DNA from: a virus
IMG/VR virus record: IMGVR_UViG_3300035529_000070
Coordinates: 1 to 58,113 of that record
Length of the DNA stretch: 58,113 nt
Direction: 5' to 3' (one strand)
Both the position numbers and the translations under genes were made by a program. How positions within the stretch are numbered: position 1 is the first letter of the stretch; the number at the start of each line of letters is the position of its first letter. Shown here in pieces: positions 1,625 to 46,155 of this stretch. Below the pieces are notes generated by a model. That model was not told the origin of the DNA. It saw only the letters and a list, made by a program, of their open reading frames with translations, and searched no databases.

Positions 1625-2227
1625 TTATATTTGGCTGGGGGCATTCTGTAGATTATATTGTGCCCTTAATCCATCTAATTTCCCAAATAATTCAGCCATA
1701 TTGATAGCAGATTGATGGTGTTGTTTTGTTAAATTTCTATTCTTTTCATTGCCTTCTATTCTAGGAATAGGCATTTTATTTTTATCTTGATTTGATTTCT
1801 TATAATTCCTATCTACTATTCCAACATAATTAATTGTATTAGTTTGCTTATAATTATTGGCTTTTTCTTTCTCTTTATTGCCGCTAACCTTTTTGCCTGT
1901 AAAATAGCCTAGCAATCCTCCAGCAGCACCAGCAGCGCCTCCAGCAGCGAGCCCAGCTCCAAGGCCCTTTTCATTTCCCACAGCCACTATTGTTGGCACC
2001 CCGGCTAAGACAGCACCAGTTACCCCTCCAACGGCACCACCTTTTTTCTTCTTTTTTCTACTTTGATTTTCCAAAGACAAAGCTTGAGACGTATTTGTTC
2101 TCATTAAATCTTCATCTTCATCACTATGGTATATTCCTCTTATATTGACAGGCTCTGTCATTTGATTTCCATAATAATTCAAATAATTAGTTCCTGCAGC
2201 TGTTTTTATAAATTCATTGTTTATCAT
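1625..2227 (-). CDS. glycine-zipper protein with MINNEFIKTA leader (putative virion-internal protein)
   Basis: ggaggg RBS before ATG 2227; poly-Lys run followed by a Gly/Ala hydrophobic hairpin. Confidence 0.75.
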   Translation of the reverse strand: MINNEFIKTAAGTNYLNYYGNQMTEPVNIRGIYHSDEDEDLMRTNTSQALSLENQSRKKKKKGGAVGGVTGAVLAGVPTIVAVGNEKGLGAGLAAGGAAGAAGGLLGYFTGKKVSGNKEKEKANNYKQTNTINYVGIVDRNYKKSNQDKNKMPIPRIEGNEKNRNLTKQHHQSAINMAELFGKLDGLRAQYNLQNAPSQI

Positions 2228-2283
2228 GTCATAACCCTCCAATATCAGAAAAAGCAGGAGTTTTGCTCCTGCCTTATCTATCT

Positions 2284-2667
2284 TTATCTATTGCCAAATA
2301 AAGAATTGCGCATTTGATTTCTAGTAGTATTTTGGGCAAACTGAGTTGGGGATTGAGAATCTATTTGTTGCGATAGATCAGGGGCTTGTTGTAATTTAGG
2401 CACTTGAACATTTTCTGAATCAGGATTAGACATTTGAGGTACCCCCCCTCTAGGATTAGATTCCATGCTGCCACCTTGTGTTTGCTGATTTCCACCATTA
2501 AACCAACCTTTAGCTTTATCCACTAAAGCTCCATCCATTCTGTGATTAGCATATGCCAATCCGCCGGCAGCTGTTGCAGCGGCTAATCCTCCAGCTAACC
2601 ATGGATTAATTCTTTTTTTCTTTTTTTCATCTTCGGCTAATTTGTAATATCTTGCTGTTTTAATCAT
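2284..2667 (-). CDS. MIKTARYYKLA-leader protein with poly-Lys plus Gly/Ala helix
   Basis: ggagg RBS; leader shared with 23115-23519. Confidence 0.75.
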   Translation of the reverse strand: MIKTARYYKLAEDEKKKKRINPWLAGGLAAATAAGGLAYANHRMDGALVDKAKGWFNGGNQQTQGGSMESNPRGGVPQMSNPDSENVQVPKLQQAPDLSQQIDSQSPTQFAQNTTRNQMRNSLFGNR

Positions 2668-2680
2668 AAAAAATTACCTC

Positions 2681-4120
2681 CTATTTTCTGTTTAAAGCGT
2701 AATCATAATCTATTTTTTTACTATATGGATTTTTGTTTGTTTTTTTAGAAACCTCAAGATCAATTTGAGCTTTTCTCAAATCTCTACTTTCAGCTATTTG
2801 AGTTTTTTTCCCTGACATATTATTGCTGTTATACACCTTATGTAATTTGTTATAACCTCCAACCTCTTTAGCTCCAGAAGCCTGTGAACTTAATGATTTA
2901 GATAAATATCCTTTGCCTAAATCAGAATGGAAATTTTTATACTTACCTTTAGCTTTGTTTAATTGTTGCATAGACTTGCCAGCGTTTTGACTAGTATTTC
3001 TCAAAGATTGCATGAACTTTCCAAGGTTGGCATAAGCTTCTTTAGCAAACTTAAAGTCATCTTCTATTTTTACAGTTGCAGATATGCTATGGTCTGAAGC
3101 AGTTTTCAATCTATTCATAGCCGCATCATATGCAGGCCTATATGGACTTCCACCTTTTAAAGCTTTAGTGTAAGAATATTCGTCTATTTGATCTTGACGT
3201 TTTTTCTTGGCTACACGATCAGCTATCCATCCACCAGCAACACCTGCAGCAGCACCGGCAGCTCCCCAGCCTGCAGCACCTTTTAATGCATTACCCCATT
3301 TGTTAGGCGTATTACTAGGGTTTGCTTGAGGAGGGGTTTGATTTTGATCAGGAGAACCCGCCCCTGTAATAGTATCTACTCCAGCTATGCTTTTTTGTAC
3401 AACCCCCGGAAGTCTATCTGCTGGATTTGGCGCATTATTGTCTGTTGGTATTGATTTTGTAGCCCCTCTTATAGCACCAGCACCGGCTCCTACTAATGCA
3501 CCAGTTCCCATACCCCCTAAAAGCTTTCTCCATGTTTCTTCCCTATTCCACTTTTTTTCATTTTCTTTAAAATCATTAAAATATCTTCGATCTACATCAC
3601 TCATACTTTGATAATCTCTTGCCCTCATATCTTGTAATTTTCTTTTTTCTATCTCAGTTAATTTGGCAAGTTTTAACATAGGTTCTACGTTGTCATTGTA
3701 TAAAACATAATCAACTCCAGCAGAAAATGCAGCTATCTTTTGCATATTTATACTAGCTGTTTTCTCCTGTCTTTTTCTTTCTTTGTTTGTAGCGTTGGCT
3801 AATCCAGCAATACTTGAAGTAGCACCAATACCAGCTCCAGCGGCACCACCTAATAATCCCGCTTTTGTCTTAAGCCAAGGAAAATCAACTCCAGCTTGTT
3901 GCCAAGCTTTTTGTCCTTTGTGGCCTAACGCAGCACCAAGCCCAGCACCTATTGCTCCACCAGCTAAAGCAGCACCCATAGCATTATTTTTCAATACTCT
4001 TTTTTTATCTTTTTTTCTCTGTTTTTGCGAATATTCTTGGTATATATCTCTATCCAAATGGTCTTCTACACCATATCCTTGAGGAACCATTTGGGAAGCC
4101 ATTTTTGTTAAACTTTTCAT
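2681..4120 (-). CDS. 479-aa multi-glycine-zipper protein with internal K-x-A motifs
   Basis: ggagg RBS; four Gly-zipper segments; KMAS, KTAS, KIAA, KLAK, KTAS and KEAY motifs. Confidence 0.8.
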   Translation of the reverse strand: MKSLTKMASQMVPQGYGVEDHLDRDIYQEYSQKQRKKDKKRVLKNNAMGAALAGGAIGAGLGAALGHKGQKAWQQAGVDFPWLKTKAGLLGGAAGAGIGATSSIAGLANATNKERKRQEKTASINMQKIAAFSAGVDYVLYNDNVEPMLKLAKLTEIEKRKLQDMRARDYQSMSDVDRRYFNDFKENEKKWNREETWRKLLGGMGTGALVGAGAGAIRGATKSIPTDNNAPNPADRLPGVVQKSIAGVDTITGAGSPDQNQTPPQANPSNTPNKWGNALKGAAGWGAAGAAAGVAGGWIADRVAKKKRQDQIDEYSYTKALKGGSPYRPAYDAAMNRLKTASDHSISATVKIEDDFKFAKEAYANLGKFMQSLRNTSQNAGKSMQQLNKAKGKYKNFHSDLGKGYLSKSLSSQASGAKEVGGYNKLHKVYNSNNMSGKKTQIAESRDLRKAQIDLEVSKKTNKNPYSKKIDYDYALNRK

Positions 4121-4228
4121 TAATAAAACCTCCCTAGTCTATGTTCATTATAGATTGTATCACGAAAGGTTGTTGTTGAACGGTAAAATAAAAATTAGAA
4201 AATCCTTGGTATATGTAACATGAAAAAA

Positions 4229-4263
4229 TTAGCGTAAGTCCAGACCAATCGGCTGGCAGCTAA
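4229..4263 (+). promoter_or_regulatory. structured 5' leader motif, copy 1
   Basis: ttagc-gtaagt-ccagacc(aatc)ggctgg-ca-gctaa, then aggagg. Confidence 0.6.
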
Positions 4264-4276
4264 AGGAGGACATTAT

Positions 4277-4456
4277 ATGTTTAATTTTTTAATTTCTGTT
4301 TTGTTTTCTTTATTGATGTTAGTTATTGTTGGACCTGCGTATTTATTATTATTGGTACCAGTATTATTTGTTCTTGTGTTTGTAGGACCGCTTGCAGCAC
4401 TTGGTGTGCTGCAAGTTGGAACAGTAGCAGTATTGCTACTAGTTCTGATAATATAA
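4277..4456 (+). CDS. 59-aa membrane peptide with no charged residues
   Basis: Hand-translated MFNFLISVLFSLLMLVIVGPAYLLLLVPVLFVLVFVGPLAALGVLQVGTVAVLLLVLII; aggagg RBS; followed by a terminator. Confidence 0.7.
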   Translation: MFNFLISVLFSLLMLVIVGPAYLLLLVPVLFVLVFVGPLAALGVLQVGTVAVLLLVLII

Positions 4457-4580
4457 AAAAGGGAGAGCGAAAGCTCTCTTTCTTTTTTTTACCTATATAA
4501 ACTAACATATAATAAAATGAAAAAAATCAAAAAATGTTGGTATATATAATATGTAAGGATTAGAAGATATTCTAGTCCAC

Positions 4581-4613
4581 CCTCGTAAGACCAGACCGCA
4601 AGGCTGGCAGAGG
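4581..4613 (+). promoter_or_regulatory. structured 5' leader motif, copy 2
   Basis: cctc-gtaaga-ccagacc(gcaa)ggctgg-ca-gagg, then aaaggag. Confidence 0.6.
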
Positions 4614-4627
4614 AAAGGAGATTTAAT

Positions 4628-4951
4628 ATGAATATAATAAATTGCACACCCCACCCATTAAATATTAAAAAAGGATCAGAAACAATAACCATCCAACCCT
4701 CTGGGATTATTCCCAGAGTAAAAACAGAAACAAAAACCGTTGAAGGACTTAACGGTTTTGAAGTTAAAGAATCAAGATCCACAGGTGTAGAAGGTTTACC
4801 TGCACCTGAAAAAGATACCATCTACGTAGTATCAGCAATGGTAGCACAAGCTACCGATAGAAACGATGTAGTATCCCCAAACACTGGGGAAGCTCTTCGA
4901 AATGAAAAAGGGCACATTGTGGCTGTGCCCGGATTCGTTAAGTACGTTTAA
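4628..4951 (+). CDS. conserved hypothetical phage protein (N-x-TPH...GLP family)
   Basis: IINCTPHPL, PSGIIPRV and GLPAPEKDTIYVVS motifs. Confidence 0.75.
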   Translation: MNIINCTPHPLNIKKGSETITIQPSGIIPRVKTETKTVEGLNGFEVKESRSTGVEGLPAPEKDTIYVVSAMVAQATDRNDVVSPNTGEALRNEKGHIVAVPGFVKYV

Positions 4952-4955
4952 GCCA

Positions 4956-5021
4956 CTGTCGAAACGAGGGTTCTGCCCTCGTCTGGTAGGGATGACCTCC
5001 TGCCACTGATGAGACAGGTCA
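4956..5021 (+). ncRNA. type II hammerhead ribozyme
   Basis: Stem II ctgtc/gacag; GAAA; stem III cgaggg/ccctcg; GUC cleavage triplet 4981-4983; stem I tggtagg/cctgcca; CUGAUGA core 5006-5012; loop I tgacc can pair with 3' ggtca. Confidence 0.93.
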
Positions 5022-5091
5022 GTAACAAAGGCTACGTGTCGGAAGCCTATAATTCTGACAAATCAATAATACCCGAAGGAGGGATTATTAT

Positions 5092-5391
5092 ATGACATTG
5101 AAAGATAAGGTAGATTCCATCAAATCATGGATGAAAAAGGAATATGAATTAAAAGTAGAAAGTATCCCAAAATCGTCTTTTGACGATTTTGAGGAAGAAT
5201 TAAAAGAAATTTTATTTCCGCATTTAATTGCGGAAGATGCAAAAAAGAAAAAAGCTCAAGAAATACTTGAGCTAGAAAGAATCAAAGACAAAATAGGCCG
5301 TTATGGCCTAGAAGAATTAAATGATTTTAACATTTTGTCATGGGCTGAAGAAATAGCCTTGGCAAATTTAAAGAAAATTTCAAGAGGCTGA
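5092..5391 (+). CDS. hypothetical protein
   Basis: aaggagg RBS; terminator follows. Confidence 0.75.
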   Translation: MTLKDKVDSIKSWMKKEYELKVESIPKSSFDDFEEELKEILFPHLIAEDAKKKKAQEILELERIKDKIGRYGLEELNDFNILSWAEEIALANLKKISRG

Positions 5392-5483
5392 ACACGCACC
5401 TCTTTTTTTACCTATACAGAAAATAAAAAATGAAAATTCTTGGTATATATAATATGTAAGGATTAGAAAATATTCTAATCTGC

Positions 5484-5516
5484 CCTCGTAAGACCAGACC
5501 GCAAGGCTGGCTGAGG
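5484..5516 (+). promoter_or_regulatory. structured 5' leader motif, copy 3
   Basis: cctc-gtaaga-ccagacc(gcaa)ggctgg-ct-gagg, then aaaggag; about 90 bp upstream of the start nearly identical to 4538-4627. Confidence 0.6.
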
Positions 5517-5530
5517 AAAGGAGTTTTAAT

Positions 5531-5935
5531 ATGAAATTAGTTAATTTTATGGAAATAATTGAAGGAGATTTTGATGAAAACTATGAAACAAGAGAAAAAG
5601 ACCAAAGAATTTGGGGTTCGAAAGGAAATTTCACATTTTTAAGAAATGATAGAGCAGACCAATATGAAATGTATTCAAAAGAACAAGCTGAAGAAATTAG
5701 GAGATTTATTGAGGATTATTACGAAAGATTTATGGTTGATCCAGAACAAGCATATGAAGACCAAGAACTTCATTATAATTTGGTTGGTTATAAAGAATAT
5801 AGAAACGGAGATGAAGAAGTAAAAAGAATTTCAATAGTTCCTACTGACGATGAAGATGAAAAAGATTTAAATCGTTATATAGAAAATTTTTTAAAAACCA
5901 ATGGCAGAGGAATATGTATAGAGTATATCAGATAA
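5531..5935 (+). CDS. hypothetical protein
   Basis: aaaggag RBS. Confidence 0.75.
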   Translation: MKLVNFMEIIEGDFDENYETREKDQRIWGSKGNFTFLRNDRADQYEMYSKEQAEEIRRFIEDYYERFMVDPEQAYEDQELHYNLVGYKEYRNGDEEVKRISIVPTDDEDEKDLNRYIENFLKTNGRGICIEYIR

Positions 5936-6062
5936 TCTTTTACTCAGCCCGATTTGTCGGGTGAAGAATAAAGACGGCGCACCACGCGCCTCTTTTTTTA
6001 CCTATACAAACACATGATCTTGTTGTATAATATAGAAGAATACTATATAAGGAGATGTTTAT

Positions 6063-6242: not shown

Positions 6243-6247
6243 AAAAT

Positions 6248-7318: not shown

Positions 7319-7335
7319 AATTTCACATCCTTTCA

Positions 7336-20672: not shown

Positions 20673-21821
20673 TTATTCTTTTTCTTCAATTTTTCCTCCT
20701 TGAACATAATTTTCCATATCCATCGTATATCCATCTATATTTAACCCAAATCCTTCGAAATTTAGCGTCTGTGGCTTTATCTTCTTTATTCCGTCTATTT
20801 CGTCGAACACTCTTTCAAAATAGCTAGAGAGATCATTTAAATCATCTATCATAGATTCTATTTTTTTAATCAAAAACTTAGTTGTTGTAAAATCACTTGT
20901 ATTAGATAATTTGAAATAAGTTAGAAAATCTATTATAGGTTCAAAAATTTTATCTAGTTTTGGCCTTTGTTTTTTAAAATCATACACGAATTCTTGTTGG
21001 CCAAACAAGCTACTCAATATATCTTCTATAGTCGCTCCAACTGCTCTATGTTTATAAAAATCCAAGACTTTATTTATTTCAGATATTTCTTGTTCGGTAA
21101 ATAACTTAGATATTGCTGTTTTCATATCAATAATAGGTATTTGGTGTATATCTGCAAGAGTTTTCAATCCGGATTTATACAACTGCATTTGTACATCCCC
21201 AACGCCTCTAATCTCAAATGTCTGTGAGGATATTTGTGATTCTCTTATTAAAGCAGGAATATAAAAAGAGTTGATATAAGATAGCTCGTATGCATATTCA
21301 TCCTTTATATAATCTACAAAATCATTTGACAAATTCATCAAATAATCTCCAGATATATCATCTTCTTCCTTTTCCAGCGACCTTTTAATAAGACTGGAAA
21401 AATTCCTTTCGGCATAGTCAAACGATTTTTGATCTCCACCCTGGGTGTTTATTATATCGTGGAATGAGCGAGTGATATTAAAATTAGTTTGTAGTAATTC
21501 CGTATACACGCCCCATAAAACAGGCTTTGTTCTATTACCATTTCTATAAAACTCATTCCAATAACTTCCCTCTTTTCTTGAAAGAAATACAGAATATGAA
21601 ACTGCTTTATGTTCCAAATATAACACAGGATATAATACTTTTTGCAATAAAGCCATCTTTAATGGATAAAGAATTTTAGGAAACTCCTGTAGATCAAATG
21701 TTTGTTTCATATAGGCTTTATCATCCTTGTTAAACACCACGCATCCTATTTGCTGATCCGAATCGCTTTCATTTACAACAAAATCCATAACAACTTTTCC
21801 TTCATAATCTTTCATATACAT
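20673..21821 (-). CDS. hypothetical protein (382 aa; start may be 21815)
   Basis: Long ORF, aggagg RBS; IRGVG..MQLYKSG weakly HhH-like. Confidence 0.75.
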   Translation of the reverse strand: MYMKDYEGKVVMDFVVNESDSDQQIGCVVFNKDDKAYMKQTFDLQEFPKILYPLKMALLQKVLYPVLYLEHKAVSYSVFLSRKEGSYWNEFYRNGNRTKPVLWGVYTELLQTNFNITRSFHDIINTQGGDQKSFDYAERNFSSLIKRSLEKEEDDISGDYLMNLSNDFVDYIKDEYAYELSYINSFYIPALIRESQISSQTFEIRGVGDVQMQLYKSGLKTLADIHQIPIIDMKTAISKLFTEQEISEINKVLDFYKHRAVGATIEDILSSLFGQQEFVYDFKKQRPKLDKIFEPIIDFLTYFKLSNTSDFTTTKFLIKKIESMIDDLNDLSSYFERVFDEIDGIKKIKPQTLNFEGFGLNIDGYTMDMENYVQGGKIEEKE

Positions 21822-22846: not shown

Positions 22847-23101
22847 TTATTTCATTCCAGAGCCATCGGCTTTACCTTGTCCCGGTCCAGCTCCTTTGCC
22901 ATGTGGTCCAGTACCGTCTTGCTTTGGCTGTCTACTTTGATTATAATCCCTCAACGCTAAACTCATAGCTTCTTTATTAGATTTACCTTGTGCTACATAT
23001 TTTGCTTGAAGTCTTCTAAGTTCTTGAGCATTTTGTTCTGATTGTGCACTTTTTTCCTTAAGAGTGTTTGCTGCAGTTTTAATAAATTCTTCACTTATCA
23101 T
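22847..23101 (-). CDS. MISEEFIKTA-leader small protein
   Basis: ggagg RBS; family leader; C-terminal DGTGPHGKG motif. Confidence 0.8.
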   Translation of the reverse strand: MISEEFIKTAANTLKEKSAQSEQNAQELRRLQAKYVAQGKSNKEAMSLALRDYNQSRQPKQDGTGPHGKGAGPGQGKADGSGMK

Positions 23102-23114
23102 TTTTACTAACCTC

Positions 23115-23519
23115 CTATTTTATTTTGTTTAAATAATCGTACACATATTCTGAACTTCTATTCATCAATTGATCTCTCTCTTCATCTGTCAATTTGTTCG
23201 CTTTTCTTTTTATTTTATTATTATGAAGAGCGTTTCCTAAATATCCTGCAGTGCTTCCTATTACAGAACCGACAGCAGCGCCAACAGGGACTCCAACTAT
23301 AGCACCTGCGGCAGCCCTTTCTTGCCATTTTGCTGGAAGATTTTCGTTAGCAATACCGCCAGTCCCTCCACCAATCGCTCCACCAGCTGCCCCTACTAAC
23401 CCACCTGTTAGTCCACCTTCCAATGCTCTTTGATACCCTAAAGGCTTTTTACGGTCTATATAATTCATCAATTCTTCTGTAGATGCAGCAATCTTATAGT
23501 ATCTTGCAGTTTTCAACAT
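23115..23519 (-). CDS. MLKTARYYKIA-leader glycine-zipper protein
   Basis: aaggagg RBS; two Gly-zipper helices. Confidence 0.8.
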   Translation of the reverse strand: MLKTARYYKIAASTEELMNYIDRKKPLGYQRALEGGLTGGLVGAAGGAIGGGTGGIANENLPAKWQERAAAGAIVGVPVGAAVGSVIGSTAGYLGNALHNNKIKRKANKLTDEERDQLMNRSSEYVYDYLNKIK

Positions 23520-23536
23520 AGCAATTGCCTCCTTAT

Positions 23537-24121
23537 TTATATAATAGCTCTTCCAAAACCTTTTAATAAAGTTGGGGCTATATTTTTTTGGAAATTTTCT
23601 TTTTTTGTATATTTATTATCTTCCAAATATTTATCTAAAGCTTGACTATATTCTGGGTTTGTTCCTTCTTGATTTTGTTGTCCAATAAAATCTTGTCTAT
23701 TTTTTGTGGTTTGCCTTACTACGGTAGGATTTGTAGGCCCATTCATAGGTGTATAATGTTTTTTAAATGTAGGTGTTCTCATTAATAGTTTGTCTATTTT
23801 TTCAGGAGAAGCATTTTGAGTTTCCATAACTACATCATCTGGTAATTCGTTTATCATTTGGTTATAAATATCTTTTCTCTTCTTGGCTTGCACTTTGCTA
23901 GCTCCACTAGATAATGCACCCAACCCAAGCCCCGCTAACGCTCCAATAGGGATTGCAGCAGGTCCTGCTCCAGCTGCGGCAGTTCCAACAGTTGCAAGAC
24001 TACCCATTAACATTCCTGGTAATACACCATTATGGCCATCGTTCCCACTGTACATTTCTTTCAACCTTTGTCTTTGTTCTTCTACTGAATAAGCCGTTTT
24101 CATAAATTCATCACTTATCAT
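23537..24121 (-). CDS. MISDEFMKTA-leader glycine-zipper protein
   Basis: aggagg RBS; Gly/Ala hydrophobic hairpin. Confidence 0.8.
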   Translation of the reverse strand: MISDEFMKTAYSVEEQRQRLKEMYSGNDGHNGVLPGMLMGSLATVGTAAAGAGPAAIPIGALAGLGLGALSSGASKVQAKKRKDIYNQMINELPDDVVMETQNASPEKIDKLLMRTPTFKKHYTPMNGPTNPTVVRQTTKNRQDFIGQQNQEGTNPEYSQALDKYLEDNKYTKKENFQKNIAPTLLKGFGRAII

Positions 24122-24204
24122 CTAAATTACCTCCTGTTTGCGTATTATAATTTCTTTATATTTTTTATCGTTGTAGTTACCTCATGATAGGAAAATTAAT
24201 TATC

Positions 24205-24549
24205 TCAGAAAATATTGTTAATAGCCCCTGTCATCATCTGCATTAAATTTTTAACAAGAAAACTATCGTTTTCACTAATGTATTTTTCTATAGATTCTTT
24301 CGCTTGATTTGGTGGCATATTCAAATACTTTTGGATTGTATTTTCAGGAATTATATCTATTAAATCTTCAATCGAGTTTTTGTCTAATCTTACGGATATT
24401 GATTCATAATCCCCAGAGCCCTTATCTCCAGAAGTGAAAGTATACATATGAGGTTTTCTCGCTTTAAGAAGATGCTTTGTAAGACTTTTCTTGCCATTTT
24501 GTTCTTTTTGAAACCAAAAAGCCGTTTTTATAAATTCATCATTTATCAT
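24205..24549 (-). CDS. MINDEFIKTA-leader protein
   Basis: gaggagg RBS; upstream sequence (ggaggtaatttagATGATA) same as 24121. Confidence 0.8.
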   Translation of the reverse strand: MINDEFIKTAFWFQKEQNGKKSLTKHLLKARKPHMYTFTSGDKGSGDYESISVRLDKNSIEDLIDIIPENTIQKYLNMPPNQAKESIEKYISENDSFLVKNLMQMMTGAINNIF

Positions 24550-24608: not shown

Positions 24609-26567
24609 TTACATCTTAAAGGTTATCAAGTAATTGTAGCTCAAATATGCTCCAGTTGGGTTTGTCACCTTGATTCTTCTTCTTTTTCTTTCTATTCCAT
24701 TTTCGTCGTAGTATACTTCTTCATCATCGCCTTGTATTGGTAGTCCTCCGCCTTCTATATCTCCTACAACTGTAATGTGCACGAAGTCTATATTATCGTA
24801 TGGTAGAAGGTAACTTTCTCCAGGGCCAAGTGTTTTTGTTCCTATTCTGATCTGGGTTGGGACCATGCTATCTTTGTTACCGTTATCATGGTATATATTC
24901 AATCCAGATACATATTTATCTTCCTCAGCCACATTTCTTTTATCCCTGAAAGTCTCAACCATTTCTTCTTTCTTGTAGTATCTTTCATCATGGTCGTGCC
25001 CTTCCAAAGCAAATTCGTCTATTTCCTTTCCACCCAGCCTATAAGAGGCAACTGCCCTATCTTCTTTAGATAGGTAGTGTATTTCATTACCATCTTCATC
25101 GTAATGGCTTTTGTGTCCTTTTAAGGCAAAGTCATCCATACCATATGTTCCTCCGCTTATGTTGTCATAGAATTTCTTAGCTCCTATAGGTATGTCTGTT
25201 TCCTGCATTAATACACTATCATGGTTGTGCCCTATTTCTGCAAAGTCATCTGTTGTGTATAGCCTAAAAAAAGAGCCTTCAACTTTGTCGCTTAAGTATG
25301 GTATTCCTTCTACATATTCTACACTTGATTGTTCTTTTGTGTTTGTCAATTGTTCCAATATTCCTTTTAACTCTGCCTCTTCTACTTTTTCCCCTAACAG
25401 AAATTCTGCATCTATATCTGCCAAATCTTCAATCCTGGCATATCCCTGCCTATCGTGGTTATGATCGGTTGATGCAAAGTCATCTGGGAAGTATCTTTCA
25501 CCTGTATTTTTGTCTATTAAATACTGAACATTTTTTACAGGATCTGTTGTCCTTAAGTATTTAGAATGGCTATCCAATATATCTTCATGCCCAACTACCG
25601 CTATATCATCTGCCGAATGGGGTTCTTCATTTTCATCCAGTATGTAATCAGCGTATTGTGCTTCCGGCACTATATATTTTATACCATTTAACGGTTGGTC
25701 ATTGAGTATAGCGTTTCTTTTGCCTTCGTTGCTATCTGAACTTGCATTCATTATATTCATATTCAAGGCCAGGTCATCTGCCCATTTGCTCATTTGATCT
25801 ATATCTACTTCATTCAATTTGTCAAAATCTACAATACCATAGATAGTTTCGCCAAACCTTATTATATCATTAGATAACTCTTCAGCCTCTGCCGTCCTGT
25901 TTTCCATCACCATATGCATTGCATACTTTTGCCCCAATAACCCTACAATAATCTTAGAATATTCCTTTATTAAATCGTCTTTTTTAGCCATGTTATATAT
26001 AGCCTTTAAGGCATTGTATTCTCCTATCCCCTGTACATCAATATCTTTATTCCATGCCTTATGGTGTTCCTTTACAAACACCCTTGCAGAGAAGATTGTA
26101 GCCAATAAGAAGAAGTCTTCAATTAGCTCTGCCCTGTAACTTCCACCGAACCTGTTAACATTTAGTGAATTTTCCCACATGTTTTCATATACATATGGTG
26201 CAATGCCTGTATTATCTGATGTTTGAGTGCCATAGAAATTCTGTATAAGCTCAGCAAAAAAGAAACAGGCTACATAAGTCTGTTTATCGGTATTTTGAGC
26301 ATAATCTTTTGTACCCGTGATTACTTCCTTAATTTCGATTAACAGTTCTTTGAAAGATAGACCATCAGGACTGTTGAGGGGATGTTCATTTGGAAGATGG
26401 GACAAGAAGGTATTTAAATAGCCCTGTATTGAGCCTTTATTATAATTATCTAATATATATTGGATTGCTTGTTTAATAGCCTGGTAAGTCAATTTAGTGG
26501 CAACTGAATTCATTTTAGGGATATAAACTTTAAATGGATCTGTTGTGTTTATATATTGGTTAAGCAT
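24609..26567 (-). CDS. 652-aa protein with HxH(D) repeats (tail-fibre-like)
   Basis: FASTDHNHD, FAEIGHNHD, FALKGHKSH and FALEGHDHDERY repeats. Confidence 0.6.
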   Translation of the reverse strand: MLNQYINTTDPFKVYIPKMNSVATKLTYQAIKQAIQYILDNYNKGSIQGYLNTFLSHLPNEHPLNSPDGLSFKELLIEIKEVITGTKDYAQNTDKQTYVACFFFAELIQNFYGTQTSDNTGIAPYVYENMWENSLNVNRFGGSYRAELIEDFFLLATIFSARVFVKEHHKAWNKDIDVQGIGEYNALKAIYNMAKKDDLIKEYSKIIVGLLGQKYAMHMVMENRTAEAEELSNDIIRFGETIYGIVDFDKLNEVDIDQMSKWADDLALNMNIMNASSDSNEGKRNAILNDQPLNGIKYIVPEAQYADYILDENEEPHSADDIAVVGHEDILDSHSKYLRTTDPVKNVQYLIDKNTGERYFPDDFASTDHNHDRQGYARIEDLADIDAEFLLGEKVEEAELKGILEQLTNTKEQSSVEYVEGIPYLSDKVEGSFFRLYTTDDFAEIGHNHDSVLMQETDIPIGAKKFYDNISGGTYGMDDFALKGHKSHYDEDGNEIHYLSKEDRAVASYRLGGKEIDEFALEGHDHDERYYKKEEMVETFRDKRNVAEEDKYVSGLNIYHDNGNKDSMVPTQIRIGTKTLGPGESYLLPYDNIDFVHITVVGDIEGGGLPIQGDDEEVYYDENGIERKRRRIKVTNPTGAYLSYNYLITFKM

Positions 26568-26706
26568 TGGATCACTTCCCTCCTATAATATAAAGAAATT
26601 ATATCATGTTTCAAAAAGTAGAATAGTTAAGTAAAATATAAACATATATTGGTATATATTATATGTTAAGTAATGGGTAGTATTAAATAAATAAGGAGGA
26701 GATAAA

Positions 26707-38927: not shown

Positions 38928-38930
38928 AGT

Positions 38931-40292: not shown

Positions 40293-40296
40293 ATCA

Positions 40297-41490: not shown

Positions 41491-42206
41491 CTAGACCACC
41501 CTGAGTCTTCGTTCAAATACTCTTTAAAATCATCTTCAACTTCTTTTTTCAACTTATAAAGTTTAGCATAATTACCATCCATCTCTTGAGATATTTGAGT
41601 TAAACTTTTTTTCTGTTCACCATTTAGTCCATATAATTTGGCAATAAGAGTTTCCCCTTCATGGCCATATTTACTTCTAATATATTGTAGTGCTTCCATT
41701 ACCTTTAAATTGTTATTTTTATAAACTCTGTTAAACGAATTTTCTGATTCTATAACAGTGCCTCCCATTTTTCTCTTAAAAACATCAATTTTTTGTGGAG
41801 ACCATGCTAAAGAATCTGCTAATTCAAGTGTAGTAGGATCTCTATCTTGTTTGTACTTTAAGTCGTTGTATGTATTTTGAAATGTAGAAAATTCCAAATT
41901 ATAATTCTCTGGTAGTCTCAATGTTCCTTGGTTGTTATTCACAAATCTATTCATCTTTTGTAAGTATTGATTGACATAAGTGACAACTCCGCCTTTAGAA
42001 GAATTGTAATTTTCCAATGCTTTCGCTATTAATTTTTTTGCTTCCAAATCCATAGAAGTTGGGCTTATACCGGAATCTCTATACTTGCTTATCGTATAAC
42101 TAACATATGGTTTCAAATCCCTATATATTTCAGCAAATACTCTAGGATCTTTACTTTTTTTCCATTCATTAACATTTTTTACTAAATTAGGGTTAGATGC
42201 TCCCAT
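41487..42206 (-). CDS. phage-encoded sigma70-family transcription factor
   Basis: Region 2-like (LIAKALENYNSSKG.VVTYV), TLRLPE, region 3 (RDPTTLELADSL), region 4 (LYGLNG..KKSLTQISQEM). Confidence 0.85.
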   Translation of the reverse strand: MGASNPNLVKNVNEWKKSKDPRVFAEIYRDLKPYVSYTISKYRDSGISPTSMDLEAKKLIAKALENYNSSKGGVVTYVNQYLQKMNRFVNNNQGTLRLPENYNLEFSTFQNTYNDLKYKQDRDPTTLELADSLAWSPQKIDVFKRKMGGTVIESENSFNRVYKNNNLKVMEALQYIRSKYGHEGETLIAKLYGLNGEQKKSLTQISQEMDGNYAKLYKLKKEVEDDFKEYLNEDSGWSR

Positions 42207-42209
42207 GGT

Positions 42210-44837
42210 TTACACCTCTTTCCTCTCCGTTTCAGGCATATATTTTAATATTTCTTTTGCTTTTCTTAATTCAGCTATATATCTAACTTCTCTGTTTGAA
42301 TCTCCTGTCTTATTGATAACCGGTAATATTTGATATACTTTTGCTAATTCGTATACAGCCCATACAGCATCATTCATGTTATTTAAGGCAAAGATGGGTA
42401 GTTGTTGATAAGAAATAGTTGTATAAGCTTCTACCATTTGTTTTAATAGTTTTATTATAAAATACCTAACTTCTGCTATAGAAGACAACGTCAATGAATT
42501 ATTTATGTCCTTCCCTGTTTCCAAGCCTGCTATAAATTCTTCTAACTGTTTATTTAAAATATCATTTGAATCTATAATAGGTTTAAAATCATTAATTTTA
42601 ACATAATCAGTACTTAATAAACTAAAATTGTCTTTAGTAACTTTTTTTACCGTAGACATACTTTCTAATATTTTTTTAGCTTCCTCTAATTCTTTTTCAT
42701 CATTTGAAGATACCAAGAAATGTTGCAACTTGTTAGTTGATAAAAAAATATTTTTATCTCCGTTAAACTTATATAATAACTTTACTATATCTATATTTTT
42801 ATCTTCTGTTTGTTTAAATGAATTAGAAGTTTTGTATATTTGATTTGGCAGCAAATATTGTAAAATAAAATCTTTCATCAATTTAATTATATCAAAAGCA
42901 TTATTCACCCTTGAGTGTTGTTTCTTTTCTTCAAGGCTCATTTTATTTATCTTATTATCTTTAAAAGTATAGCCTAATTTATTCAATCCTTTTATATGTT
43001 CATTACAAAATTGTACAATACTATCTTTATTATCCGATTCACTTTCTAAATATCCAGAAAGATGGTCATATATAACTTTACCGAAAGATTGTAAGCCTAT
43101 ACGGCTATAAAACTCCTCATGGTTATTCACTCTATAATAAGACTCGGTAGTTAACCACCACTTGTTTTCTTCAATAGGATAATTCAATTGATCGACATTA
43201 TTCAAAGTTATTGATGTGGTTGGTGCTCCTTTTGAATTGAAAACATGAGAAACAGAATTCACCTGCCCAAAATAAATTCCAGAATTTGTTATTATCATTG
43301 CTGGAAGACCATTCGCTATATAAGGATTGAAATCCAATTGGACTTGCATCATTCTTGATTTGGCCCAATTTTCATTATAAGATTTTCTAGAAATTACAGC
43401 AACACTTTCATTAAACGATTCAGAATCAACTGTGTTTGTTATTATTTCATCACTTTCTTCATTATCTGCTTGTTCTTCATTATCTATATTAACCATATAA
43501 CTCATAACATCCTTATATTCAACCTGCTCGGAATAATAAGTCCCCATAGCACGATTATTAAGATTGTTAGATGCAACTAAAGTTTTCATTTTATCAAAAG
43601 ATAAAGCATCATTCGACGTATCATTTCTAATGCTATATAATTCATCCATCGTAAGCCCTTTTTTAGGGTAAGTGGATTGTCTTAAAGGTCCTGGATAAAT
43701 GCCTGTCACATATGGAGATAAAGAAATATTTCCATTTGTGCTGCCAAATGTTGTTCCCACCCTAGTTGGATATTTATGCTGGACCTCAAAATTAATCGAT
43801 GATATTTGAGAAGGTAATATTATATTAGATGAAGGAGGTATATAAGCAAAAGATTGGGGAATAAATAAATATTGGCCTATGCCCATATTTTTATCTTCTT
43901 CTCCTAAAGTTAATAAATCAGAATAGTATTTATTTCTAATGTTTTTAATTTGTTTAGGAAAAGATTCACCTTCACTATTAGCATTATATGAGCTAAGCTT
44001 AGGAAATAATTGTCCATACAGATTATGTTCCATATTATCTGCAAAAACACTTAATATTTGCATTAAAGAAGTTTCACCTTGAGCATTTTGAGCAAAATCT
44101 AATATACTTTTATTAAATAATGCTTTTAATACTCCTTTTTGATACGGCTGTTTTTCACTATTAGTACCTTCAGTTGCAAAATTATTATCAGAACGATAAT
44201 TTATATCAGCACCTTCTAAAAAATTAGGGTCTCCAAATACTATCCTTCTTGAAAAATGATAAGCATCTTCTAAATCCATAAAATCATTCTGTAAGACAGA
44301 TAGATATGTTATAACGGAAAAAAATAAAGTATCTTTTTTCAACTCTACTACTTCACTATCATCTTGATTTATCCCAAAATATTTACTCATAATTTGATTC
44401 AAAACATAATTAATACCTAATACTCCACTGTTGTTTTCTCCAAGACCTAAACTTTTAAAATCTGGATAATTGTGATTACGCACTAATAATTCTTTGGATA
44501 CGTTATCTGGTAACTGATCGAAGTTTAATAGTTTTATACTCATAGGCCAATCAAATGGAGCTACAAAATCTAACGATATCTCATTTTTTGTTGGCCTTTT
44601 AATTCTTTGAGCACTTTTCAACAAACCATCTACAGCTGTTATCCATCCTTCCCCTTCTGTATTAAACAAATCATTTTTTACTTGTACTACAGCATAAGTA
44701 TTAGGGGGCAATTCCATAAGAGCAGGAATTGGTGGAAAATAAGCTTTAAAATTTATTGTTTTACCAGAAGCAACTATCTGTACAGAATCACAATAAAATT
44801 CTTCATGTTCAATTAATATACGAAAATAAGTTTTCAT
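42210..44837 (-). CDS. putative baseplate hub / tail protein (875 aa)
   Basis: FNPYIANGLPA...GQVNSVSHVF...TTSITL resembles a gp27/gpD hub C-terminal motif. Confidence 0.55.
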   Translation of the reverse strand: MKTYFRILIEHEEFYCDSVQIVASGKTINFKAYFPPIPALMELPPNTYAVVQVKNDLFNTEGEGWITAVDGLLKSAQRIKRPTKNEISLDFVAPFDWPMSIKLLNFDQLPDNVSKELLVRNHNYPDFKSLGLGENNSGVLGINYVLNQIMSKYFGINQDDSEVVELKKDTLFFSVITYLSVLQNDFMDLEDAYHFSRRIVFGDPNFLEGADINYRSDNNFATEGTNSEKQPYQKGVLKALFNKSILDFAQNAQGETSLMQILSVFADNMEHNLYGQLFPKLSSYNANSEGESFPKQIKNIRNKYYSDLLTLGEEDKNMGIGQYLFIPQSFAYIPPSSNIILPSQISSINFEVQHKYPTRVGTTFGSTNGNISLSPYVTGIYPGPLRQSTYPKKGLTMDELYSIRNDTSNDALSFDKMKTLVASNNLNNRAMGTYYSEQVEYKDVMSYMVNIDNEEQADNEESDEIITNTVDSESFNESVAVISRKSYNENWAKSRMMQVQLDFNPYIANGLPAMIITNSGIYFGQVNSVSHVFNSKGAPTTSITLNNVDQLNYPIEENKWWLTTESYYRVNNHEEFYSRIGLQSFGKVIYDHLSGYLESESDNKDSIVQFCNEHIKGLNKLGYTFKDNKINKMSLEEKKQHSRVNNAFDIIKLMKDFILQYLLPNQIYKTSNSFKQTEDKNIDIVKLLYKFNGDKNIFLSTNKLQHFLVSSNDEKELEEAKKILESMSTVKKVTKDNFSLLSTDYVKINDFKPIIDSNDILNKQLEEFIAGLETGKDINNSLTLSSIAEVRYFIIKLLKQMVEAYTTISYQQLPIFALNNMNDAVWAVYELAKVYQILPVINKTGDSNREVRYIAELRKAKEILKYMPETERKEV

Positions 44838-44882
44838 ATTATCACCTCTATAAAAAAATAGGGCAGTCTCTGCCCTAATTGA

Positions 44883-45215
44883 TTAATATTCTATTCCTGT
44901 TCTCTGCTGTCTTATTTCTCTTTCGTATTGAATTTGAGTCTGTCTCGGAAGTTTATTAAATACTTTTTTATTGTTATATATCTTTTCATAATTAGTATCT
45001 TTTGTAAACTTCACATAATCTTTAGTTCCTTCTTTATAATTCCTTTTTGCCCAACCTGTAGTGTGATCTCTAAATTCTATAGTAGACAACCCATATGTTC
45101 TTTTCATATCCGTTTTGCATTCAGGGCATATAACTGCATCATCTCTTTCTTTAGAATATCTAAATTTTTCTTCTATACTTCCACATTTAGGGCATTCATA
45201 TTTATATATTGGCAA
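44883..45215 (-). CDS. FmdB-family zinc-ribbon protein
   Basis: MPIYKYECPKCG...CPEC...MKR. Confidence 0.85.
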   Translation of the reverse strand: MPIYKYECPKCGSIEEKFRYSKERDDAVICPECKTDMKRTYGLSTIEFRDHTTGWAKRNYKEGTKDYVKFTKDTNYEKIYNNKKVFNKLPRQTQIQYEREIRQQRTGIEY

Positions 45216-45235
45216 TTCTATCTCCCCTTATTTAT

Positions 45236-45655
45236 TTATATACTATTACGTTTTTTCGGAACAAACCTTTTTTTGGGTCTTTTAACAAATTCTATAGCTT
45301 TCCCGTCAGGACCAAATGGAGGATTTTGAGGCCCTTTTCTTTTAAATTTTTTAGTAGCTGAAGATTGCACTTTAGTTTCTGGATCAGCAGAAGCAGCAGG
45401 CGCGCCCTTTGTTGTTTTCGAGTTTGTAGAAGTTTGAGTCACTTTTTGACCATTTTTACTTTTTTTCATATTTTCAATCATTTCATCTGCTCCAATTAAA
45501 TCTCTAACTTTAGGATTAGTTAACGCTACTTTTCCACCTACACCTAACGTTGCTCCTAAAGCAAACCCTTTGCTTTTGTCACCGGGAGGTGCCATCATAG
45601 AACCTACCATTCCCCCGCCTAAACCTGTCATTAAAGCTTGTGTTTTAAATCCCAT
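45236..45655 (-). CDS. glycine-zipper protein with basic tail
   Basis: GLGGGMVG and GFALGATLGVGG. Confidence 0.65.
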   Translation of the reverse strand: MGFKTQALMTGLGGGMVGSMMAPPGDKSKGFALGATLGVGGKVALTNPKVRDLIGADEMIENMKKSKNGQKVTQTSTNSKTTKGAPAASADPETKVQSSATKKFKRKGPQNPPFGPDGKAIEFVKRPKKRFVPKKRNSI

Positions 45656-45702
45656 TTATATACGTCACATATATAAACTATATGCGACTTTCACCTCCTT
45701 TA

Positions 45703-46155
45703 TTATTTGTTTGGATTGAATGCATTTGTTGCTGCATCTGATAAATTATTAGTTAACGCTGATACTCCGAATAACCCTGCAGCTCCAATACCTTTTGCTG
45801 TATTTCCTATGCCTTCCAACCCTTTTATAACTTTAGATTCTCCAGGAACGAAATTATCACTCTGAGGATTTTCTTGTGAAAAATTCCTGCTCGCAGACCT
45901 ATATTGAGCATCTGGATTTGGATTATCAACTTTATTTTTTATGTTAGTTGAATAAGCTTCTTCTCTAACATTTTTATTAGAAAACCCTGATTTGATTTTT
46001 TCTGATTGCCTTTTGAAAAAACCTGGTTTCTTTTTTTTCCCAAAATTAAAAGCTTTATCTAATAAATTTCCGTCTATATCTCCTGCACTGCCTACTGCTT
46101 TATTAATAACTTTATTTGTTATAGCAGCACTTTTTATAAATTCATCATGAATCAT
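45703..46155 (-). CDS. MIHDEFIKSA-leader protein
   Basis: Family leader; C-terminal Gly/Ala helix. Confidence 0.75.
   Translation of the reverse strand: MIHDEFIKSAAITNKVINKAVGSAGDIDGNLLDKAFNFGKKKKPGFFKRQSEKIKSGFSNKNVREEAYSTNIKNKVDNPNPDAQYRSASRNFSQENPQSDNFVPGESKVIKGLEGIGNTAKGIGAAGLFGVSALTNNLSDAATNAFNPNK

What the first reader, a model, noticed from the sequence alone, without database searches (positions are those of the whole stretch)
1625..46155. Dispersed family of late-strand proteins sharing an N-terminal 'EFIKTA / KTARYYKxA' leader: candidate capsid-targeting and protease-cleavage system for injected membrane-active cargo
Seen: otherwise unrelated minus-strand proteins at three loci begin MINNEFIKTA (2227), MISEEFIKTA (23101), MISDEFMKTA (24121), MINDEFIKTA (24549), MIHDEFIKSA (46155), MIKTARYYKLA (2667), MLKTARYYKIA (23519) and MKSLTKMA (4120). 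Similarity stops right after K-x-A. Most then carry Gly-zipper hydrophobic hairpins flanked by Lys clusters. Established: T4 internal proteins IPII/IPIII use a 10-aa capsid-targeting sequence (MKTYQEFIAE) removed by prohead protease gp21, and Gly zippers are common in membrane-inserting and pore-forming proteins. Inference: a portable ~10-aa tag loads diverse cargo into the head, is cleaved after K-x-A, and delivers membrane effectors or ejection-channel parts on infection. It could also serve as a protein-packaging tag.
Basis: partly seen in the sequence, partly recalled or inferred. Interest (0 to 1): 0.85.

Follow-up and report, generated by a model that had tools for sequence, protein, structure and literature searches.

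The report
Capsid-loading tag cut at Lys-x-Ala
A large uncultured phage puts the same ten-residue tag on about a dozen unrelated small basic proteins, and the tag ends in the motif that marks its head-assembly proteins, so it is probably a T4-style "load into the capsid, then cut off" label that uses a different cutting rule; neither loading nor cutting has been measured.

Summary
All eight N-termini sit at the stated minus-strand ATGs, each behind a Shine-Dalgarno site. The window is the first 58 kb of a 183.5-kb IMG/VR phage record, which holds four more copies. The strict leader pattern occurs 9 times in the proteome, always at residue 2.

The key evidence lies outside the window. The motif hydrophobic-x-K-x-A is 5-20 times over-represented in eight head-module proteins (49 seen, 7.3 expected). 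The other 189 proteins are at chance (66 vs 65.8). The motif also flanks the catalytic domain of the head protease in disordered linkers. It sits at one conserved spot near the capsid protein N-terminus in six phages, including cultured Salmonella phage Arash and Vibrio phage D69.

The protease has no Pfam family but folds like T4 gp21 (Z 10.5) and herpesvirus assemblins, which also cut after Ala. In a 61%-identical relative, one ortholog carries the other leader type, joined exactly after K-x-A.

Best reading: a T4-CTS-like tag cut after K-x-A. Packaging, cleavage and the "membrane effector" role remain inferred.

The scan reached the same reading on another window of this genome (e1-5618847, e1-5618846). 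I rate it a new variant of a known kind.

The parts
1625..2227 (-). Leader protein A, 200 aa. It starts MINNEFIKTA|AG, then has an RKKKKK run and two Gly/Ala-rich hydrophobic segments (residues about 62-111). The mature part has net charge +10.
2284..2667 (-). Leader protein B, 127 aa. It has the second leader type, MIKTA|RYYKLA|EDE (two K-x-A motifs), then KKKKR and one AGGLAAATAAGGLAYA segment.
2681..4120 (-). Leader protein C, 479 aa. It starts MKSLTKMA|SQ (third, weaker leader type), has four Gly/Ala-rich hydrophobic segments and eight K-x-A motifs (four with the hydrophobic residue two positions before Lys, 1.6 expected), and net charge +32. It is the first gene of a three-gene cassette bounded by terminator-like hairpins at 4478-4463 and 1610-1590.
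22847..23101 (-). Leader protein D, 84 aa. It starts MISEEFIKTA|AN, is helical and basic, has no hydrophobic segment, and is followed by a terminator-like hairpin at 22801-22769.
23115..23519 (-). Leader protein E, 134 aa. It starts MLKTA|RYYKIA|ASTEELMNYI. Its ortholog in relative G001 starts MIRNEFVKTA|ASSEEVLNYL, a leader swap with the junction right after K-x-A. It has Gly/Ala-rich segments at 32-57 and 67-95.
23537..24121 (-). Leader protein F, 194 aa. It starts MISDEFMKTA|YS and has a long Gly/Ala/Leu hydrophobic stretch (31-77) followed by KKRK.
24205..24549 (-). Leader protein G, 114 aa. It starts MINDEFIKTA|FW and has no hydrophobic segment. Apart from two marginal matches to long proteins (E about 1e-5), its only homolog among 1.84 billion representatives is the G001 ortholog, which starts MIKDEFIKIG.
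45703..46155 (-). Leader protein H, 150 aa. It starts MIHDEFIKSA|AI, 6 nt after the stop of the 838-aa gene 46162-48678. It has a KKKK run and one weak C-terminal Gly/Ala segment. Its G001 ortholog starts MLRDEFEKTS.
45236..45655 (-). Neighbouring small Gly-rich, very basic protein (139 aa, net charge +18) without the leader. It is conserved next to H in G001. It is listed as context only, not as a family member.

Best explanation
The ten-residue N-terminus M-[ILV]-x-[DNK]-E-F-[IVM]-K-[TS]-[AS], and its variants M-x-K-T-A-R-Y-Y-K-x-A and M-x(3-4)-L-x-K-x-A, is a removable head-protein leader.

The leader is an optimal copy of the recognition motif of the phage's own capsid-maturation protease. 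That motif is acidic-acidic-hydrophobic-x-Lys-x-Ala, with Ser, Ala, Asn, Gly or Glu following. The enzyme has the T4 gp21 / herpesvirus assemblin fold.

Inferred mechanism: the leader brings the small proteins into the assembling prohead core, by binding either the protease-scaffold protein or the scaffold. The protease then cuts after the Ala (or Ser) of K-x-A, in the same step in which it trims the capsid protein, itself and the scaffold-like proteins. What stays in the head is a lineage-variable set of small, net-basic proteins. Many carry Gly/Ala-rich weakly hydrophobic segments, and they presumably leave with the DNA at infection.

Shown here: the leader family, the motif enrichment, its positions, its conservation in relatives, and the protease fold. 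Inferred: cleavage, packaging, ejection and any membrane activity.
For: 1. Leader family. There are 9 strict copies, all at residue 2, plus 3 variant leaders. All have Shine-Dalgarno sites, and the mature parts are unrelated.

2. Motif enrichment. Hydrophobic-x-K-x-A scores 49 observed against 7.3 expected in eight head-module proteins and 15 against 5.2 in the 12 leader proteins. It scores 66 against 65.8 in the other 189 proteins. The logo from 49 internal sites has L/F/M/I at P5, K at P3, A at P1 and S/A/N/E/G at P1', with acidic residues upstream. The leader D-E-F-I-K-T-A fits this logo.

3. The protease.
   - It matches phrog_18299 'head maturation protease' (E 6e-8) and has 1101 homologs.
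   - Its model has the T4 gp21 fold: Foldseek probability 1.0, and VIA-align Z 10.5 at rmsd 2.8 A over 132 residues. Herpes assemblins follow at Z 6-7.5.
   - In an alignment of 20 homologs, L-x-K-T-A before the domain and K-V-A-S after it are near-invariant. In the model these sites fall in linkers with pLDDT below 50.
   - Herpes assemblins cut after Ala; the predicted pseudorabies sites are YLQA-T and VQA-S (PMC4498786).

4. Capsid protein. A K-x-A lies at the same place, just before the first conserved helix, in six phages: FEKTA|AG, FNKTA|ES, FEKNA|AD, LVKTA|EG, LVKEA|GA and LTKEA|GA.

5. Relatives. The same enrichment appears in orthologous head proteins of two metagenomic relatives and of cultured phages D69 and Arash. 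The Arash orthologs gp218 and gp220-224 were detected in virion preparations by mass spectrometry (PMC10585845).

6. Closest relative. G001 (protease 61% identical) has ten leader proteins. Leaders are 5-9/10 identical where bodies are 29-60% identical. One ortholog pair swaps leader type, with homology starting immediately after K-x-A. A third lineage, from a biogas reactor, has MLTEEFVKVA|E on the same ortholog.
Against: - No proteomic, N-terminal sequencing or expression data exist for this phage.
- The only virion proteome in the clade (Arash) used fully tryptic searches, detected 116 proteins including ribonucleotide reductases, and has no peptide list in the held supplements. It says nothing about cleavage.
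- Arash has the head-protein motif but no repeated N-terminal tag family. The tag is therefore a feature of a narrow lineage, not of the protease family.
- In IMG/VR only one other contig (G001) carries the tag.
- The leader resembles internal sites so closely that a separate address function is not demonstrated.
- Some leaders end in Ser or Gly (KTS, KIG), so P1 is not strictly Ala.
- The protease does not match Pfam S77 or S78 by sequence.
- Catalytic residues are inferred from invariance only (H95, S148, H174).
Confidence: 0.6

Rival explanations
1. The leader is a substrate site only. It is a protease-removable propeptide, for example a safety catch that keeps a membrane-active or DNA-binding protein inert until it is inside the head. 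Incorporation into the prohead is directed by the body of each protein or by neighbouring structural proteins, not by the tag.
For: The leader is an optimal version of the internal site consensus and carries no obvious extra element. Each tagged gene sits directly behind a large gene in the same operon, which is compatible with partner-mediated incorporation. Arash has the motif in head proteins but no tag family.
Against: Thirteen bodies with no detectable similarity would each need their own route into the head. Residues M-I-x-D-E-F upstream of K-x-A are held more tightly than in internal sites, and always lie exactly at the N-terminus. In T4 the analogous ten residues are sufficient for targeting (PMC3012670).
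Confidence: 0.2
2. Hydrophobic-x-K-x-A is a docking motif that is not cut. It would be a short linear motif by which scaffold-like proteins and the tagged proteins bind the capsid protein, portal or protease.
For: Enrichment and positional conservation show selection on the motif, not scission. The Arash orthologs rich in the motif are still detected in virion preparations.
Against: The motif flanks the catalytic domain of a gp21/assemblin-fold protease in disordered linkers, as self-release sites do. Small residues at P1 and P1' (Ala|Ser) match assemblin cut sites. Leader-swap junctions fall exactly after the Ala. Fragments that stay in the head would still be seen by tryptic mass spectrometry.
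Confidence: 0.1
3. The tag has nothing to do with the capsid. It could be a recognition sequence for another modifying enzyme, a membrane- or secretion-related signal for phage membrane proteins (holin-like or exclusion proteins), or an AT-rich translation-initiation enhancer.
For: Several members look like small membrane proteins. The coding DNA of the tag is very AT-rich. Elsewhere in this scan a shared leader turned out to be linked to a radical-SAM enzyme (note e1-127136).
Against: No enzyme gene co-occurs with the dispersed tagged genes. The tag ends in the very motif that is confined to head proteins. One copy (138052) lies inside the head module, next to the protease gene. Amino acids are conserved across synonymous codon changes and across three lineages. 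The tag is hydrophilic, so it is not a signal peptide.
Confidence: 0.07
4. The shared N-termini are remnants of gene duplication: paralogs whose bodies have diverged beyond recognition, with no function for the tag.
For: Four members are tandem (22847-24549) and three are tandem (1625-4120). Several share Gly/Ala-rich composition.
Against: Drift would not keep the first ten residues while erasing everything after them. The tag is kept in orthologs of a relative with 29-60% body identity. One ortholog exchanged one leader type for another. Copies are spread over 170 kb on both strands.
Confidence: 0.03

Closest known systems
Phage T4 capsid-targeting sequence (CTS) of internal proteins IPI/IPII/IPIII and Alt, removed by prohead protease gp21
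   Same: A conserved N-terminal peptide of about 10 residues sits on otherwise unrelated, mostly basic small proteins. It ends in the cut motif of the phage's own head protease, and that protease has the same fold (gp21, Z 10.5). According to PMC3012670, the T4 internal proteins are diverse and share only the CTS, which loads them into the scaffolding core.
   Different: The cut rule is Lys-x-Ala| instead of Leu/Ile-x-Glu| (the T4 rule is from general knowledge). The protease has no detectable sequence match to Pfam Peptidase_S77. It carries a Cys cluster (C158, C161, C172) and a 260-residue C-terminal helical extension. The phage is unrelated to T4 in its other genes. Many cargo proteins carry Gly/Ala-rich hydrophobic segments. 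Nothing has been shown experimentally.
Herpesvirus assemblin (pUL26 protease-scaffold) with release and maturation sites (V/L/I)-x-Ala|Ser
   Same: The fold is shared (Z 6-7.5 for nine herpesvirus protease entries). P1 is Ala and P1' is Ser or Thr (PMC4498786). The layout is also shared: an N-terminal catalytic domain, a cut motif in a linker (FAKVA|S at residue 219), a long helical C-terminal part, and another motif about 23 residues from the C-terminus (IYKAA|S at 455).
   Different: This is a bacteriophage enzyme that also requires Lys at P3 and a hydrophobic residue at P5. Herpesviruses are not known to use the site as an N-terminal tag on a family of cargo proteins (my knowledge).
Head-protein processing in giant phages phiKZ / SPN3US (proteases gp175 / gp245, motif S/A/G-x-Glu)
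   Same: Many head and ejection proteins carry N-terminal propeptides with the protease motif, and some have several motifs per propeptide. A multisubunit RNA polymerase is carried in the virion (PMC10052503). This phage encodes a fused beta-beta' polymerase, and in its relative Arash the polymerase subunits were the most abundant virion proteins by mass spectrometry.
   Different: The motif and the protease family differ by sequence. In SPN3US the propeptides are long and individual, not one shared 10-residue tag.
Phage P1 DarB N-terminal packaging signal
   Same: An N-terminal peptide (30 residues) is sufficient to send a foreign protein into the capsid (PMC9024508).
   Different: It is a single protein rather than a family. 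The passages tie the DarB signal to no protease motif; the one P1 processing site they give, in the major capsid protein, is E120|S121. There is no sequence resemblance.

Membership tests
T4-type capsid-targeting-sequence system | One short N-terminal peptide shared by otherwise unrelated proteins | tested here: met
   There are 9 strict and 3 variant leaders. The strict pattern occurs only at residue 2. The mature parts give no BLASTP hit once composition is corrected.
T4-type capsid-targeting-sequence system | The leader ends in the cut motif used by the phage's own prohead protease on head proteins | tested here: met
   This is met at the level of motif identity only. Hydrophobic-x-K-x-A scores 49 against 7.3 expected in head proteins, flanks the protease domain, and lies at the capsid protein N-terminus. 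Scission itself was not observed.
T4-type capsid-targeting-sequence system | Cut motif Leu/Ile-x-Glu | tested here: not met
   The motif here is Lys-x-Ala (Ser/Gly in some leaders).
T4-type capsid-targeting-sequence system | The tag is sufficient to load a foreign protein into the head, and the tagged proteins are present, trimmed, in virions | not testable with these tools
   This needs virion proteomics and reporter fusions. The phage is uncultured (IMG/VR record).
Peptidase S77 (T4 gp21) / S78 (HK97) by sequence | Match to Pfam PF03420 or PF04586 | tested here: not met
   Neither family matches anywhere in the 183.5-kb record. The protease has no Pfam hit.
gp21 / herpesvirus assemblin fold (clan SH) capsid protease | Seven-stranded barrel fold of gp21 / assemblin | tested here: met
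   In the AlphaFold model the domain 35-217 has pLDDT 80-90. Against 5jbl, Foldseek gives probability 1.0 and E 6e-4, and VIA-align gives Z 10.5 at rmsd 2.8 A over 132 residues. Herpes proteases follow at Z 6-7.5.
gp21 / herpesvirus assemblin fold (clan SH) capsid protease | Ser-His-His catalytic triad | tested here: inconclusive
   H95, S148 (also S159) and H174 are invariant in 20 homologs. Their spacing resembles the His-Ser-His order of the family, which I state from memory. I could not inspect their geometry in the model.
Glycine-zipper membrane proteins (Pfam Gly-zipper_Omp / YMGG / OmpA, C19orf12, Romo1) | Match above the curated cut-off | tested here: not met
   Only protein E matches, and it scores below cut-off: C19orf12 28.8 against 30 bits, and the Gly-zipper models about 14 against 25-29 bits. 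The other members have none. Small-xxx-small repeats are visible by eye and by count.

The most novel reading that the evidence does not exclude
A Pfam-orphan branch of the gp21/assemblin protease superfamily has over 1000 homologs, and cultured phages Arash, D69 and probably phage G carry it. On this reading the branch uses an undescribed Lys-x-Ala| code. In one anaerobe-associated lineage that code has been turned into a self-sufficient ten-residue 'load and cut' address, read by the protease-scaffold itself. The address fills the head with a fast-evolving set of glycine-zipper, membrane-inserting proteins that build or open the DNA entry path. It would work as a portable protein-packaging tag.
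Probability: 0.3. Interest if true: 0.8.

Novelty: new variant of a known kind. Interest (0 to 1): 0.58.

Why it matters
If this reading is right, three things follow.

1. It gives a simple sequence rule (hydrophobic-x-Lys-x-Ala|small residue) for predicting processed head proteins and mature N-termini in a large, poorly annotated phage clade. That clade includes cultured Salmonella and Vibrio phages and possibly phage G, where the rule can be tested at once.

2. It shows that the T4 trick of a cleavable capsid address arose, or was kept, with a different cut code on the same protease fold. The code is closer to that of the herpesvirus enzymes, which bears on the shared ancestry of phage and herpesvirus capsid maturation.

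3. It flags about a dozen orphan proteins as likely virion cargo, and offers a second candidate tag for packing foreign proteins into capsids.

Tried and rejected
- DNA searches of the leader loci against 50,697 phage records found nothing.
- A single-protein scan of IMG/VR with the protease found nothing.
- PHROGs and Pfam gave no family for the large genes next to the leader genes (24609-26567, 46162-48678, 42210-44837, 20673-21821).
- A relaxed back-translated leader pattern in IMG/VR gave 29 loci. Apart from relative G001, none is a convincing leader gene: most matches lie in ORFs of 3-19 residues, one is internal to a 1245-aa ORF, and two begin ORFs on 56%-GC contigs that I did not examine further.
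- Salmonella phage Arash was scanned whole for an N-terminal tag family. None was found. Only gp95c (MSLHKLA..., with an AGGLAAA segment) resembles leader protein B.
- The Arash paper and its supplements hold no cleavage analysis and no peptide list. The printed coverage values are not usable; for example, 100% coverage is reported from 2 peptides.
- The phage G paper names gp19 as a maturation protease but gives no cut sites.
- Sequence searches of the PDB with the protease and the capsid protein returned nothing.
- Sigma-70 promoter scans around the cassettes were at chance level. By eye, several late-looking operons and the 4120 cassette have TGnTAnAAT extended -10-like boxes, but I did not test this.
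- A co-fold of the protease domain with the first 40 residues of protein A returned 'no answer' (score 0.27, mark 0.32). That is no evidence either way.
- In mycobacteriophage I3, a distant protease homolog, the motif enrichment is weak (5 vs 1.9). In phage G the protease itself is rich in the motif (7 vs 0.9) but the capsid protein has none. How far the code reaches in the family is therefore open.

Full report
**What the window is.** The 58,113-base window is the first part of a 183,532-base linear IMG/VR virus record. The record has 30% G+C and a CheckV completeness estimate of 82%. Most of its large proteins match no PHROG or Pfam family. One related contig comes from a biogas fermenter metagenome.

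**Checking the observation.**
- Each ATG has a GGAGG- or GGTGA-type ribosome-binding site 5-10 nt upstream, and nothing else upstream is conserved.
- Thr and Ala codons differ between copies, so selection acts on the peptide.
- The whole record holds four more copies: MISDEFIKTS (101178, +), MIIDEFWKTA (138052), MIRDEFIKTA (156163) and MIHKEFIKTS (170530).
- The pattern [ILV]xx[ED]F[IMWV]K[TS][AS] occurs nine times in the 209 predicted proteins, each time at residue 2 and never internally.
- Eleven genes have hydrophobic-x-K-x-A ending at residue 8-12, against 1.3-2.3 expected.

With the leaders removed, no pair of these proteins gives a BLASTP hit when low-complexity filtering and composition correction are on. 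Without them, only the Gly/Ala-rich stretches align. All mature parts are net basic (+1 to +32). Gly/Ala-rich weakly hydrophobic segments next to Lys/Arg runs are clear in the proteins starting at 2227, 2667, 4120, 23519 and 24121, weak in 46155, and absent in 23101 and 24549. Pfam glycine-zipper models match only below their cut-offs.

**The decisive context lies outside the window.** At 122-142 kb the record has a head module. It contains:
- a terminase (a GpA_ATPase-type homolog sits at the same place in relatives);
- a portal-like protein (phrog_16240, E 1e-7);
- a 478-aa protein matching phrog_18299 'head maturation protease' (E 6e-8);
- a 316-aa capsid-protein candidate (phrog_2522, weak) that aligns with the annotated major capsid protein of Salmonella phage Arash.

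The motif hydrophobic-x-K-x-A is strongly over-represented in this module. Observed against expected from shuffles: 14 vs 1.6, 9 vs 0.9, 6 vs 0.3, 7 vs 1.8, 4 vs 0.2, 4 vs 0.5 and 4 vs 0.9. Summed over groups:

| Group | Observed | Expected |
|---|---|---|
| Eight head proteins | 49 | 7.3 |
| Twelve leader proteins | 15 | 5.2 |
| Remaining 189 proteins | 66 | 65.8 |

The whole genomic excess is therefore confined to these two groups. A logo from 49 internal sites shows L/F/M/I at P5, Lys at P3, T/V/other at P2, Ala at P1, S/A/N/E/G at P1' and acidic residues at P6-P7. Examples are DDSFEKVA|S, EYFEKNA|S, DAYFEKTA|A and NNEFIKEA|A. The leader D-E-F-I-K-T-A is an optimal copy of this consensus.

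**The enzyme.** The 478-aa protein has 1101 database homologs. Among cultured phages they include:
- Vibrio phages D69, D148 and D181 (39% identity);
- Salmonella phage Arash (46%);
- phage G gp19 (37%);
- mycobacteriophage cluster C, Gordonia and Rhodococcus proteins, some annotated as capsid maturation or prohead protease.

It matches no Pfam family, and Peptidase_S77 and S78 match nowhere in the genome.

An alignment of 20 homologs has invariant H95, S148, S159 and H174 and a Cys cluster (C158, C161, C172). It also has a near-invariant L-x-K-T-A before the domain and K-V-A-S after it.

The AlphaFold model gives a confident domain at residues 35-217 (pLDDT 80-90). The K-x-A motifs at 29, 219 and 227 fall in segments with pLDDT below 50. 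The domain's best structural match is T4 gp21: Foldseek probability 1.0, and VIA-align Z 10.5 at rmsd 2.8 A over 132 residues. A block of herpesvirus assemblins follows at Z 6-7.5. Herpes assemblins use a Ser-His-His triad and cut after Ala; the predicted pseudorabies sites are YLQA-T and VQA-S (PMC4498786).

The layout recalls the herpesvirus protease-scaffold protein and phage protease-scaffold fusions. It runs: catalytic domain, motif in a linker, long helical C-terminal part, and another motif 23 residues from the end (IYKAA|S at 455). That comparison is an inference.

**Conservation in relatives.** The enrichment recurs in the orthologous head proteins of:
- a JGI contig with a 55%-identical protease (7 vs 1.5, 8 vs 0.5, 4 vs 0.2);
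- a 103-kb contig with a 53%-identical protease (7 vs 1.6);
- D69 (9 vs 1.1, 9 vs 0.7, 6 vs 0.8, 5 vs 0.4);
- Arash (9 vs 0.8, 8 vs 0.8, 6 vs 1.1).

In the capsid protein a K-x-A sits at one position, just before the first conserved helix, in six phages whose flanking residues differ. The Arash orthologs gp218 and gp220-224 and the capsid protein were detected in virion preparations (PMC10585845). That paper does not discuss a protease or processing, and its supplement has no peptide list.

Phage G gp19 is itself rich in the motif (7 vs 0.9), but the phage G capsid protein has none. Mycobacteriophage I3 shows only weak enrichment. The reach of the code within the family is therefore open.

**The tag in relatives.** A back-translated leader pattern found one other IMG/VR contig, here called G001. 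It is 185,437 bases long and its protease is 61% identical. G001 has ten leader proteins: MIKKEFVKTA, MISDEFIKTA, MIRNEFVKTA, MLKDLFMKTS, MLRDLFKKNS, MVRDEFVKTA, MIKDEFIKIG, MLRDEFEKTS, MLKKEFEKTS and MEEKLLKLAS.
- In ortholog pairs that keep the same leader type, leaders are 5-9/10 identical while the bodies are 29-60% identical.
- The ortholog of the 23519 protein (MLKTARYYKIA|ASTEELMNYI) carries the other leader type (MIRNEFVKTA|ASSEEVLNYL). Leader types are thus interchangeable, and homology begins exactly after K-x-A.
- A third lineage has MLTEEFVKVA|E on the ortholog of the protein encoded just after the polymerase gene.
- Arash has no such tag family, and a relaxed pattern found no convincing further carriers in IMG/VR.

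The head-protein code is therefore clade-wide, while the N-terminal tag family is narrow.

**Interpretation.** The tag is a T4-CTS-like leader that ends in the cut site of the phage's own head protease and is removed after K-x-A. My rough odds for the separate steps are:

| Step | Odds |
|---|---|
| K-x-A is the protease motif | about 0.8 |
| The leaders are cut by the protease | about 0.7 |
| The leader itself is the address | about 0.5 |
| The cargo is membrane-active | about 0.25-0.3 |

The cargo's uniformly basic charge fits DNA-associated internal proteins just as well. The rivals are a substrate-only propeptide, an uncut docking motif, a capsid-unrelated tag and paralogy remnants. They are set out with their tests in the Rival explanations section.

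**Relation to known systems.**
- It works like the T4 CTS/gp21 system and shares the protease fold, but fails the T4 cut rule and the S77 sequence family.
- Its P1/P1' preference and domain layout are closer to herpesvirus assemblin.
- Like phiKZ/SPN3US it belongs to a phage that probably carries a multisubunit RNA polymerase in the virion. The record encodes a 2612-aa fused beta-beta' polymerase with a LAGLIDADG intein, and in Arash the polymerase subunits top the virion proteome.

I found no description of a Lys-x-Ala code in the papers I could search. That search covers open-access text only.

**Earlier work in this scan.** The scan already reached the same reading on another window of this same genome (notes e1-5618847 and e1-5618846). 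It has also logged many T4-type (I/L-x-E) tag families in other genomes. I re-derived the claims independently here.

**Verdict.** It is a new variant of a known kind, of moderate-to-high interest because the cut rule can be tested at once in cultured relatives.

Noticed in passing
outside the window: record 93326-101164 (+), locus L002:5326-13164: This is a 2612-aa single-chain fusion of RNA polymerase beta (Rpb2 domains) and beta' (Rpb1 domains), interrupted by an intein with a LAGLIDADG endonuclease. A 611-aa protein with 14 K-x-A motifs lies upstream, and a leader protein starts 13 nt after its stop. In relative Arash the beta and beta' subunits are the most abundant virion proteins by mass spectrometry.
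   Followed up: partly
outside the window: record 135976-137412 (-), locus L001:13976-15412: The head protease looks like a protease-scaffold fusion with herpesvirus-like release and maturation sites (FAKVA|S at 219, IYKAA|S at 455). It also has an invariant Cys cluster (C158, C161, C172, next to H174) inside the catalytic domain, possibly a metal site.
   Followed up: partly
window 2681-4120 (-): Public gene calls for this protein and its 79%-identical relative start at Met11 (MVPQGYG...). That hides the MKSLTKMA|S leader. The upstream ATG at 4120 has the strong GGGAGG ribosome-binding site.
   Followed up: partly
window 54252-56756 (-) and 56770-57327 (-): The 834-aa protein matches RCC1-repeat (beta-propeller) 'tail protein' PHROGs (phrog_4219, E 2e-97). 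The next ORF shares its N-terminal 'MxWxVLLP...FVI..D....YYCNFLFED.NGNEIDFWI.DI..K' module, which suggests a family of fibre or receptor-binding proteins with a common anchor.
   Followed up: no
window 4121-4330, 26568-26706; record 89244-89400, 150296-150420: Upstream of the 4120 cassette and of several structural operons there are TGnTAnAAT extended -10-like boxes without a -35 (TGATACAAT, TGATATAAT, TGTTATAAT). This may be a shared late promoter type. It was seen by eye only.
   Followed up: no
locus L012/L013: Salmonella phage Arash gp95c (record 54867-55253): This virion-detected 128-aa protein starts MSLHKLA|K, followed by a basic stretch and an AGGLAAAASV segment. That is the same build as window protein 2284-2667. 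It may be the one tag-type cargo protein in a cultured relative.
   Followed up: no
locus L016/L026: relative G001, record 162963-164927: The ortholog of window gene 24609-26567, which heads the leader-gene operon, contains repeated 'EDFAxKGHNHD' units. That is typical of fibre-like repeat proteins. No family match was found.
   Followed up: no
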